Virus record (IMG/VR): IMGVR_UViG_2681813224_000001
DNA length: 21,304 nt
Source of the DNA: a virus
Taxonomy: Duplodnaviria > Heunggongvirae > Uroviricota > Caudoviricetes
Reading direction: 5' to 3' (one strand)
Shown: positions 11,165 through 11,626 of the stretch, piece after piece
Layout of the letters: each line of letters begins with the position of its first letter
Position numbering within the stretch: the first letter of the stretch is position 1
Position numbers and translations under genes: made by a program
The notes under the pieces: model-generated
Database searches by the model: none
What the model saw: only the letters and a program-made list of their open reading frames with translations
Told to the model about the DNA's origin: nothing

Positions 11165-11626
11165 ATGAGAATACTAGGTGTTAGAGCGGCGCCCAAAGTT
11201 ACATCTTTTGTTGTATATTGCACTAATGAGTCTGCACTCAAATGTGTTGATGTTATTAAAATACCTTCGACCTTAGACACACCAGAAAAATTAAAGTATG
11301 TGAGAAATAACATCCTCGACATTCTTAATTTATATAATGTTGAATTAGCTGCCATACGCGTTACTGAATCAAACTCTGATAATCTTAGCATTGACCGCCT
11401 TTATATAGAAGCTGTTATTCAAGAAGCATTTTCAAGCAGTGATGTAAGAAAATATTACACTATTAGAAAATCTGGCATGAAATCATCATTGAACCTAACA
11501 GAGATCGAGTATAAAGAAATATTGAAGTCACACCGCAATATAAATGGAATCGATAATTCTGGTTTTACAACTGAAACAAATGAAGCTGTTTTGGCTGCAC
11601 TATCTGCGGAGGTAAGGGGATGCTAA
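11165..11626 (+). CDS. Hypothetical protein, translationally coupled to the downstream kinase
   Basis: 153-aa ORF, conspicuously AT-rich; its 3' end overlaps the kinase start by 7 nt; no recognisable family. Confidence 0.6.
   Translation: MRILGVRAAPKVTSFVVYCTNESALKCVDVIKIPSTLDTPEKLKYVRNNILDILNLYNVELAAIRVTESNSDNLSIDRLYIEAVIQEAFSSSDVRKYYTIRKSGMKSSLNLTEIEYKEILKSHRNINGIDNSGFTTETNEAVLAALSAEVRGC

What the first reader, a model, noticed from the sequence alone, without database searches (positions are those of the whole stretch)
11165..11626. AT-rich 153-aa ORF translationally coupled to the kinase
Its stop overlaps the kinase start by 7 nt, implying coupled translation and probably a functional partnership (regulator, substrate or trigger-sensor). 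No recognisable motifs; composition is the most AT-rich in the window.
Basis: inference. Interest (0 to 1): 0.6.

Follow-up and report, generated by a model that had tools for sequence, protein, structure and literature searches.

The report
Dead-RuvC partner of Stk kinase
The 153-aa ORF is a real, expressed prophage gene (933W L0083) encoding a RuvC-shaped protein without RuvC's catalytic residues; it always sits directly in front of the Stk abortive-infection kinase in bacteria of several phyla, so it is very probably an unstudied subunit of that phage-defence system.

Summary
An ATG ORF lies at 11165-11626 (153 aa), and its stop overlaps the kinase start by 7 nt. The window is the immunity region of a 933W-type Shiga-toxin phage, arranged cI - DUF3024 - L0083 (the finding) - stk - L0081 - terminator.

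The partnership is strongly supported:
- 80 of 80 genomic kinase homologues (Proteobacteria, Bacteroidota, Ignavibacteria, a cyanobacterium) have an L0083 homologue directly upstream.
- 76 of 76 evaluable viral L0083 homologues have the kinase directly downstream.
- 61 of 86 pairs overlap.
- A third small basic ORF (L0081-like) follows the kinase in 85 of 86 loci.

Published proteomics detected a lysogen protein whose database mass, 17,096 Da, equals that of L0083.

My reading is that L0083 is a non-catalytic regulatory subunit of a three-gene kinase abortive-infection cassette. Whether it acts as gatekeeper, trigger sensor or substrate is unresolved. I found no description of the cassette in the searchable literature or in PADLOC 2023.

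The parts
11165..11626 (+). L0083 (933W ST933Wp23): 153-aa protein with a RuvC fold but without RuvC's catalytic residues; first gene of the cassette (the finding)
11608..11612 (+). GGAGG Shine-Dalgarno for stk, inside the 3' end of L0083
   Evidence: Read directly from the sequence; 7-nt spacing to ATG 11620.
11620..11626 (+). 7-nt overlap ATGCTAA (stk start / L0083 stop)
   Evidence: Overlap or a gap of at most 12 nt is conserved in 86 of 86 pairs.
11620..12666 (+). stk: 348-aa Hanks-type kinase (933W Stk) with a variable ~70-aa C-terminal beta-rich domain
   Evidence: Pfam Pkinase E=2e-46. All catalytic motifs are invariant, and the kinase has HFD rather than HRD. AF2 pLDDT 85, pTM 0.87. 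Literature: it mediates abortive infection of HK97.
12669..12833 (+). L0081: 54-aa basic peptide, third conserved gene of the cassette
   Evidence: ORF. PHROG 4063. An equivalent 48-67 aa ORF starts within about -29 to +31 nt of the kinase stop in 85 of 86 loci, with shared motifs. Median pI 10.1.
12832..12853 (+). Intrinsic terminator (tM of 933W) ending the cI operon and the cassette
   Evidence: Terminator scan: 8-bp stem with 6 GC pairs, followed by a T-run. Annotated as tM in 933W.
9991..10695 (+). cI repressor, first gene of the lysogen-expressed transcript that carries the cassette
   Evidence: 933W annotation. Literature: stk is co-transcribed with cI from pRM.
10756..11097 (+). L0084: DUF3024 protein (PADLOC candidate PDC-S43), co-transcribed but not part of the conserved cassette
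   Evidence: Pfam DUF3024 E=1e-30. PADLOC PDC-S43 E=4e-41. GC 44.4%, like cI. Absent next to the cassette in other contexts.

Best explanation
L0083 is a real, lysogen-expressed gene. Its product keeps the complete RuvC (RNase H-like) fold but has arginine or lysine where RuvC has two of its four metal-binding carboxylates, so it is not a two-metal-ion resolvase.

It is the obligate first gene of a compact, horizontally mobile three-gene cassette: dead-RuvC protein, non-RD Hanks kinase Stk, and a small basic peptide. In 933W-type prophages this cassette occupies the slot downstream of cI and is made in the lysogen.

I propose that L0083 is a constitutive, non-catalytic regulatory subunit of the kinase. 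It would be made just before the kinase from the same mRNA and would bind it. It would help to hold it inactive in uninfected cells, or license its activation when a superinfecting phage such as HK97 supplies the trigger. The kinase would then phosphorylate cell proteins and abort the infection.

Shown here: the gene, its fold, the loss of catalytic residues, the strict gene linkage and overlap, and expression in lysogens. Inferred: physical binding and the direction of regulation.
For: Gene and context
- The window is 99.8% identical to the 933W immunity region.
- The protein is expressed: Phi24B lysogen spot P2 was matched to a predicted phage protein of 17,096 Da, 'similar to 933W p23' (PMC3342100). 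The mass calculated here for L0083 is 17,096.4 Da.

Fold and lost chemistry
- The Pfam, MAFFT and hhalign alignments all place RuvC D7 on R7 and E66 on R65.
- R7 is present in 120 of 121 divergent representatives; position 65 is R in 96 and K in 25. R47, E68, R78, E82, E87 and E140 are also invariant or nearly so.
- Median pI is 5.6, against 9.6 for E. coli RuvC.

Linkage
- 80 of 80 kinase loci and 76 of 76 evaluable viral loci keep the pair.
- 61 of 86 pairs overlap. Distance matrices correlate at r=0.86, and both proteins have a mean pairwise identity of 0.44.
- No other neighbour is conserved.

Regulator rather than variable sensor
- The partner core (residues 1-97) is as conserved as the kinase catalytic domain (mean top-residue frequency 0.59 against 0.60).
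- The kinase C-terminal domain (0.35) and the peptide (mean pairwise identity 0.18) are the fast-evolving parts.

Need for a regulator
- The kinase is non-RD (HFD; F131 nearly invariant). From general knowledge, that class is usually not switched on by activation-loop phosphorylation.
Against: - There is no direct evidence of binding.
- Eight invariant or near-invariant charged residues clustered around the former active site look more like a ligand-binding or catalytic site than a plain protein-protein interface.
- In E. coli UTAK-2 an IS3 element splits L0083 at about codon 72 while the stk and L0081 ORFs stay intact. A strict antitoxin role is therefore not required for viability, although the insertion is probably polar on stk.
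- Published work credits HK97 exclusion to stk. I could not read those papers to see whether L0083 was present in the constructs.
Confidence: 0.45

Rival explanations
1. Trigger sensor. L0083 recognises the invading phage, either a phage protein or a branched or replicating DNA structure bound through the RuvC-like cleft, and switches the kinase on. It would set the specificity of the system.
Against: The family is acidic (median pI 5.6, net charge about -2) whereas E. coli RuvC is +6. The core evolves as slowly as the kinase catalytic domain, while the kinase C-terminal domain and the small peptide are far more variable and are better candidates for specificity.
Confidence: 0.2
2. Substrate or effector. 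The activated kinase phosphorylates L0083, or releases it, and L0083 then carries out the toxic or antiviral step.
For: The strict linkage is equally compatible with a kinase-substrate pair. S92 and Y97 are well conserved (S in 94 of 121, Y in 98 of 121). The invariant R/E cluster might be an unconventional active site.
Against: The universal first-strand Asp of RNase H-like nucleases is absent, and no acidic residue lies in strand 1. Stk family kinases are reported to act by broad phosphorylation. The upstream, overlapping position is more typical of a regulator than of an effector (inference).
Confidence: 0.18
3. It is what the annotation says: an ordinary RuvC-like Holliday junction resolvase of the phage, merely adjacent to the kinase.
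For: PHROG 3875 is labelled 'RuvC-like Holliday junction resolvase' and RefSeq/PGAP calls it 'RuvC family protein'. The fold match is strong.
Against: Two of four catalytic carboxylates are replaced by a near-invariant Arg7 and by Arg/Lys65. The Pfam RuvC score is below the gathering cut-off (14.2 against 22.2 bits), and the NCBIfam RuvC score is 12.5 against 163. The protein is acidic. It is expressed in the lysogen from the repressor operon rather than with the recombination genes. It was never found without the kinase.
Confidence: 0.03
4. An enzyme with a new activity on the old scaffold, for example a phosphate- or nucleotide-handling enzyme or a phospho-residue reader that works on the kinase's products.
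For: Four Arg and four Glu are invariant or nearly so across sequences only 24-41% identical to the query. Replacing metal-binding carboxylates with Arg could create a phosphate-binding pocket (inference). The adjacent peptide carries a conserved [Y]-x-[T/S]-R motif that could be a phospho-acceptor.
Against: Purely inferential. The Arg-Glu pairs could equally be a structural salt-bridge network filling the empty metal site. No related characterised enzyme was found in the PDB by sequence or by fold beyond nucleases and pseudo-nucleases.
Confidence: 0.1

Closest known systems
RuvC crossover-junction endonuclease (Pfam PF02075; PDB 4ld0, 6lw3) and phage RuvC-like resolvases
   Different: Catalytic D7 and E66 are Arg and Arg/Lys. 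The protein is acidic instead of basic. Sequence similarity is below family thresholds. It is always fused in an operon to a kinase and is expressed in lysogens.
933W Stk abortive-infection kinase (Tyler & Friedman 2004; Friedman et al. 2011) and staphylococcal Stk2
   Same: The downstream gene is Stk itself: a prophage-encoded Hanks kinase, silent until a heterologous phage infects, that then aborts infection.
   Different: Every account I could read treats these as single-protein systems. Here the kinase clade is always flanked by two further conserved genes. I did not check whether Stk2 has any such partner.
Lambda RexA/RexB, and 434 Hex
   Same: Same genomic slot and logic: accessory exclusion genes downstream of cI, on the pRM transcript, that abort superinfection. 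The cassette sits behind S24-type repressors in Klebsiella, Providencia and Proteus prophages too.
   Different: No sequence or fold relationship, and a different biochemistry (kinase rather than ion channel or sensor).
Non-catalytic RuvC/YqgF-like domains (TEFM, Spt6, Tex)
   Different: Those are domains of large eukaryotic or bacterial transcription factors. This is a free-standing 153-aa protein tied to a kinase.
Kinase toxin-antitoxin modules (HipBA, tripartite HipBST)
   Same: A small gene upstream of, and overlapping, a potentially toxic kinase, plus a third small gene. The module is mobile and linked to phage defence (gene order).
   Different: HipA/HipT belong to a different kinase superfamily. 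L0083 has no DNA-binding antitoxin domain. A natural IS disruption of L0083 with an intact stk ORF exists.
PADLOC/DefenseFinder 'PD-T4-6' and MADS Mad6 kinases
   Same: The Stk kinase domain matches these models (mad6 E=7e-50; PD-T4-6 E=1e-37).
   Different: The matches cover only the kinase domain. The NCBIfam MAD6 score is 122 against a cut-off of 460. L0083 and L0081 hit nothing in PADLOC.

Membership tests
RuvC Holliday junction resolvase (PF02075 / NF000711) | RNase H-like RuvC fold over the full length | tested here: met
RuvC Holliday junction resolvase (PF02075 / NF000711) | Catalytic acidic tetrad (E. coli D7, E66, D138, D141) | tested here: not met
   R7 (120 of 121) and R/K65 (121 of 121) occupy the D7 and E66 positions in three independent alignments (counts). 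Only E140 may correspond to D141. No coordinates were available for a superposition.
RuvC Holliday junction resolvase (PF02075 / NF000711) | Sequence score above the curated family cut-off | tested here: not met
   Pfam 14.2 bits against 22.2. NCBIfam 12.5 against 163. hhalign probability 1.6% against a single RuvC sequence.
RuvC Holliday junction resolvase (PF02075 / NF000711) | Basic, DNA-binding homodimer that cleaves junctions | tested here: inconclusive
   pI is 6.6 for the window protein and 5.6 for the family median, against 9.6 for E. coli RuvC, which argues against this feature. Dimerisation and cleavage cannot be tested with these tools.
PHROG 3875 ('RuvC-like Holliday junction resolvase') | Full-length match to the family profile | tested here: met
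   E=7.8e-91, residues 1-153 on profile positions 1-153. The family's functional label is not experimentally based.
933W Stk-type abortive-infection cassette (as delineated here) | L0083-family gene immediately upstream of, and overlapping or abutting, an Stk-clade kinase of about 345 aa | tested here: met
   Window: 7-nt overlap. The arrangement is conserved in 80 of 80 and 76 of 76 loci.
933W Stk-type abortive-infection cassette (as delineated here) | Small basic ORF with a [YFL]-x-[T/S/K]-R motif directly after the kinase | tested here: met
   Window 12669-12833...KLPRRRDAALA.... Present in 85 of 86 loci.
933W Stk-type abortive-infection cassette (as delineated here) | Exclusion of a superinfecting phage that depends on the kinase and on L0083 | not testable with these tools
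   Kinase-dependent HK97 exclusion is reported in the literature. The contribution of L0083 is unknown.
Type II toxin-antitoxin (antitoxin role for L0083) | Small upstream gene overlapping the toxin gene | tested here: met
Type II toxin-antitoxin (antitoxin role for L0083) | Antitoxin with a DNA-binding (HTH/RHH/AbrB) domain, indispensable whenever the toxin is intact | tested here: not met
   No such domain: the whole protein is a RuvC fold. E. coli UTAK-2 carries an IS3-disrupted L0083 with an intact stk ORF; polarity of the insertion is a caveat.
PD-T4-6 (PADLOC/DefenseFinder single-gene kinase system) | Single-gene architecture with the kinase as the only component | tested here: not met
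   Only the kinase domain matches (E=1e-37). The Stk clade always carries two extra conserved genes. [quoted passage not shown]

The most novel reading that the evidence does not exclude
The classic 933W Stk 'single-protein' abortive-infection kinase would in fact be the prototype of an undescribed three-component immune cassette that spans several phyla. In it, a RuvC pseudo-nuclease has its metal site rebuilt with arginines and acts as a phosphate/phospho-protein reader or as a gatekeeper of a non-RD Hanks kinase. The small basic peptide, with its conserved Y-x-T-R motif, would act as pseudo-substrate or first substrate. The variable kinase C-terminal domain would sense the phage.
Probability: 0.3. 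Interest if true: 0.8.

Novelty: new variant of a known kind. Interest (0 to 1): 0.62.

Why it matters
933W Stk is one of the textbook prophage abortive-infection systems. It is carried by about 4% of complete E. coli genomes (225 of 5426), many of them in Shiga-toxin phages. How the kinase is kept silent and how HK97 switches it on was not explained in any source I could read.

Stk never occurs without a nuclease-dead RuvC-fold protein and a small basic peptide, in Proteobacteria, Bacteroidota, Ignavibacteria and a cyanobacterium. That turns the open question into a concrete three-protein problem that can be tested with a few deletions and pull-downs.

It also matters for annotation. The gene is currently labelled 'RuvC-like Holliday junction resolvase' or 'RuvC family protein', which is probably wrong as to function. 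Defence-system finders see only a generic kinase and miss the cassette.

Tried and rejected
The last structure job went to the kinase alone.
- The afdb50 fold library was not available.
- The primary papers (Tyler & Friedman 2004; Tyler et al. 2004; Friedman et al. 2011) are not held under DOI, PMID or PMC id. I could not check whether the published stk constructs included L0083.
- A text search for 'L0083' returned only unrelated hits. Searches combining RuvC, kinase and defence terms found nothing relevant. The CapK/CapS kinase pair belongs to a different, anti-sigma-type kinase family, so I set it aside.
- A sequence search of the PDB with the family profile gave only chance hits (E about 0.5). 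hhalign against one RuvC sequence was insignificant, although its register agreed with the other alignments.
- PADLOC and NCBIfam have no model for L0083.
- I considered that the conserved neighbour might instead be DUF3024 (L0084). I rejected this because it has the GC content of cI and is absent from all non-933W contexts examined.
- The antisense 81-aa ORF at 11146-11391 was treated as spurious, since the sense frame is conserved and under purifying selection.

Full report
**What is there**

The window contains an ATG ORF at 11165-11626 (+), 153 aa, and an ORF at 11620-12666 (+), 348 aa. The junction reads GGGG-ATG-CTA-A. The kinase ATG (11620) and the upstream TAA (11624-11626) therefore share 7 nt. 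A GGAGG lies 7 nt upstream of the kinase ATG, inside the upstream ORF. Coupled translation is plausible but not required.

An ORF this long is unlikely by chance in DNA of this composition: 0.2% of 500 shuffles reached it. It is under strong purifying selection, with dN/dS 0.05 against an 85%-identical homologue.

**Identity of the locus**

Bases 10700-12908 are 99.8% identical to the immunity region of Shiga-toxin phage 933W and many Stx1/Stx2 phages. The order is cI (9991-10695), L0084/DUF3024 (10756-11097), L0083 (the finding), stk, L0081 (12669-12833), then the tM terminator. The terminator was recovered here at 12832-12853.

GC content drops from 44-45% (cI, DUF3024) to 34.8%, 35.4% and 37.6% in L0083, stk and L0081, against 46.1% for the window. 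The three genes therefore form one compositional island.

The cassette is present in 225 of 5426 complete E. coli genomes.

**Expression**

The literature states that stk is co-transcribed with cI from pRM and is expressed in stable lysogens (PMC3564112; PMC3430580).

Riley et al. 2012 (PMC3342100) found two lysogen-restricted proteins by 2D-PAGE/MALDI in a Phi24B lysogen, both encoded downstream of cI:
- P2, matched to a predicted phage protein of 17,096 Da, 'similar to 933W p23'.
- P3, matched to a predicted phage protein of 13,472 Da, 'similar to 933W p24'.

Their transcripts were more abundant than that of cI. The masses I calculate for the window's L0083 and L0084 are 17,096.4 and 13,472.2 Da, and p23 and p24 are the RefSeq tags of L0083 and L0084. 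L0083 is therefore made as a protein in lysogens. The MASCOT score for P2 was not flagged as significant in that paper.

**What the protein is**

Sequence tools give little. The Pfam RuvC score is 14.2 bits, below the 22.2 cut-off, and covers residues 3-65 only. NCBIfam and PADLOC return nothing useful, and a PDB sequence search gives only chance hits. PHROG 3875, labelled 'RuvC-like Holliday junction resolvase', matches over the full length. RefSeq and PGAP now use 'RuvC-like' or 'RuvC family protein'.

Three independent alignments put RuvC's catalytic Asp7 on Arg7 and Glu66 on Arg65: the Pfam HMM, MAFFT with E. coli RuvC and hhalign.

A profile search of 1.84 billion representatives found 443 clusters at E<=0.001, nearly all of 150-165 aa. 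I aligned 120 full-length representatives that are only 24-41% identical to the query:
- G5, R47, R78, E82 and E87 are invariant.
- R7 is present in 120 of 121 sequences.
- Position 65 is R (96) or K (25).
- E68 is present in 119 of 121.
- Position 140 is E or D in all.

No acidic residue occurs in strand 1. The first-strand Asp is universal in RNase H-like two-metal nucleases (established knowledge), so this protein is not a conventional resolvase. The family is mildly acidic (median pI 5.6, net charge about -2), whereas E. coli RuvC has pI 9.6 and charge +6.

The conserved core is residues 1-97 plus the last helix. Residues 110-139 are variable.

**The partnership**

Starting from L0083 homologues, every context I looked up has a Pkinase gene of about 345 aa directly downstream:
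- Klebsiella and Providencia prophages, behind the repressor.
- A Terasakiella contig, next to an integrase.
- A metagenomic contig beside Wadjet jetC/jetD.
- Further metagenomic contigs.

Starting from the kinase, homologues at 42-48% identity in Pseudomonas, Acinetobacter and Elizabethkingia each have a 152-155-aa ORF upstream. These ORFs are 36-44% identical to L0083 and keep the same invariant residues.

Systematic checks gave the same answer:
- A scan of one genome per species found 179 relatives of the kinase. In all 80 loci retained, an L0083-family ORF (E 1e-33 to 1e-61) ends within a few nucleotides of the kinase start. The loci come from gamma-, beta- and alpha-Proteobacteria, Bacteroidota, an Ignavibacteria MAG and a cyanobacterial MAG.
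- A scan of viral contigs with the L0083 family gave 78 loci. Of these, 76 of 76 evaluable have the kinase downstream, two of them frameshifted; the other two are cut by contig ends.
- Among 86 pairs, the overlap is 8 nt in 37, 4 nt in 17, 1 nt in 6 and 7 nt in 1; the remaining 25 have gaps of 1-12 nt.
- Partner and kinase have the same mean pairwise identity (0.44), and their distance matrices correlate at r=0.86.

The nearest large neighbours are heterogeneous. They include S24 repressors, integrases, CapP-like peptidases, dCTP deaminase, restriction-modification genes and AriA, and none is conserved. This is the signature of a self-contained mobile defence cassette.

**A third gene**

Directly after the kinase, 85 of 86 loci carry a 48-67-aa ORF that starts between about -29 and +31 nt of the kinase stop; the window's copy is L0081. 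These peptides are strongly basic (median pI 10.1) and diverge fast (mean identity 0.18).

They share two motifs. One is N-terminal...[IV]-K-N-D-x-x-x-Y-x-[T/S]-R-[S/E/A]..., which becomes K-Y-N-x-x-G-L-T-R-A in Bacteroidota and L-P-R-R-R-D-A in the window. The Arg is invariant where the motif can be anchored. The other is a C-terminal G/S-[Y/F]-hydrophobic motif. This resembles a substrate or pseudo-substrate segment, but that idea is untested.

**The kinase**

All Hanks motifs are invariant: K42, E58, H130-x-D132-x-K134-x-x-N137, D150-F-G, P-E176, D190 and R258. It is a non-RD kinase (HFD), and its glycine-rich loop is degenerate.

The model (pLDDT 85, pTM 0.87) shows a kinase domain plus a C-terminal module of four strands and a helix. 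That module is the least conserved part, with a top-residue frequency of 0.35 against 0.60 for the catalytic domain. The closest solved structures are generic eukaryotic and bacterial kinases.

Stk is reported to have little or no activity in uninfected cells, and to be activated by HK97 infection, aborting it (PMC3681748).

**Mechanism**

Shown: gene linkage, fold, loss of catalytic residues, and expression in lysogens. Inferred: everything about contacts.

The most economical reading is that L0083 is a constitutive, non-catalytic subunit that regulates the kinase:
- It is made first, from the same message.
- Its core is as constrained as the kinase catalytic core.
- The fast-evolving parts, which are the likelier phage sensors, are the kinase C-terminal domain and the small peptide.
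- A non-RD kinase that must stay silent until infection needs an external control.

I rate this at about 0.45. The alternatives are a trigger sensor (0.2), a substrate or effector (0.18), a new phosphate-handling or phospho-reader activity on the old scaffold (0.1), and an ordinary resolvase (0.03).

Two observations count against a strict antitoxin model. First, the charged invariant cluster looks like a ligand site. Second, in E. coli UTAK-2 an IS3 element with a 6-bp target duplication splits L0083 at window position about 11380 (codon ~72), while the stk and L0081 ORFs remain intact. That insertion is probably polar on stk.

**Comparison with known systems and novelty**

The kinase is the known 933W Stk, and the slot downstream of cI parallels lambda rexAB. 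L0083 has the RuvC fold but fails the family's defining catalytic and score criteria, so it should not be filed as a resolvase. Its nearest conceptual relatives are pseudo-nuclease RuvC/YqgF-like domains.

PADLOC (2023) recognises only the kinase domain (mad6, PD-T4-6 models) and has no model for L0083 or L0081. I found no paper in the searchable library that describes the partner or the three-gene cassette. The library lacks most subscription journals, and I could not read the original Stk papers. I therefore call it a new variant of a known kind, not a new kind.

Noticed in passing
window 12669-12833 (+); loci L003-L101: A third conserved gene. A 48-67-aa, strongly basic ORF starts within about -29 to +31 nt of the kinase stop in 85 of 86 loci. 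It has an N-terminal [Y]-x-[T/S]-R motif and a C-terminal G-[Y/F]-hydrophobic motif. It may be a substrate or pseudo-substrate of the kinase.
   Followed up: partly
window 10756-11097 (+): L0084 is a DUF3024 protein that matches PADLOC defence candidate PDC-S43 (E=4e-41). Its calculated mass (13,472 Da) equals the database mass of lysogen protein P3 of Riley et al. 2012. It is co-transcribed with the cassette, has the GC content of cI, and is not linked to the cassette elsewhere.
   Followed up: partly
window 11620-12666 (+), residues 130-132, 22-27 and 276-348: Stk is a non-RD kinase (HFD instead of HRD, nearly invariant) with a degenerate glycine-rich loop. Its hypervariable C-terminal domain of four strands and a helix is the best candidate for the phage-sensing part. 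The conserved N-terminal tail (residues 1-12) is predicted disordered in the monomer model.
   Followed up: partly
L180 (E. coli UTAK-2, NZ_CP157162.1), equivalent to window ~11375-11380: An IS3-family element is inserted in L0083 at about codon 72, with a 6-bp duplication and in antisense orientation. stk and L0081 remain intact ORFs, so this is a natural partner knock-out in a viable strain.
   Followed up: partly
L104 and L163 (IMG/VR contigs): Two viral contigs keep an intact L0083 homologue but appear to have a frameshifted kinase: only HMM positions ~96-341 lie in one frame.
   Followed up: no
window 88-147 (+), 149-362 (-), 4981-5064 (-), 5090-5166 (-), 5127-5179 (-), 14779-14837 (+): Rfam matches above the gathering score: AgvB, STnc100, C4 antisense RNA, isrK, the c4 a1b1 targets, and the lambda cIII thermoregulator. 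None lies in or next to the cassette.
   Followed up: no
window ~12909-13000: The megablast match to 933W and its relatives stops at query position 2209 of 2301 (window ~12908). The stretch between tM and the N gene therefore differs from 933W in this phage.
   Followed up: no
window 11146-11391 (-): An 81-aa antisense ORF and a weak promoter-like site (11171-11143, minus strand) overlap the 5' half of L0083. They are probably chance features of AT-rich DNA.
   Followed up: no
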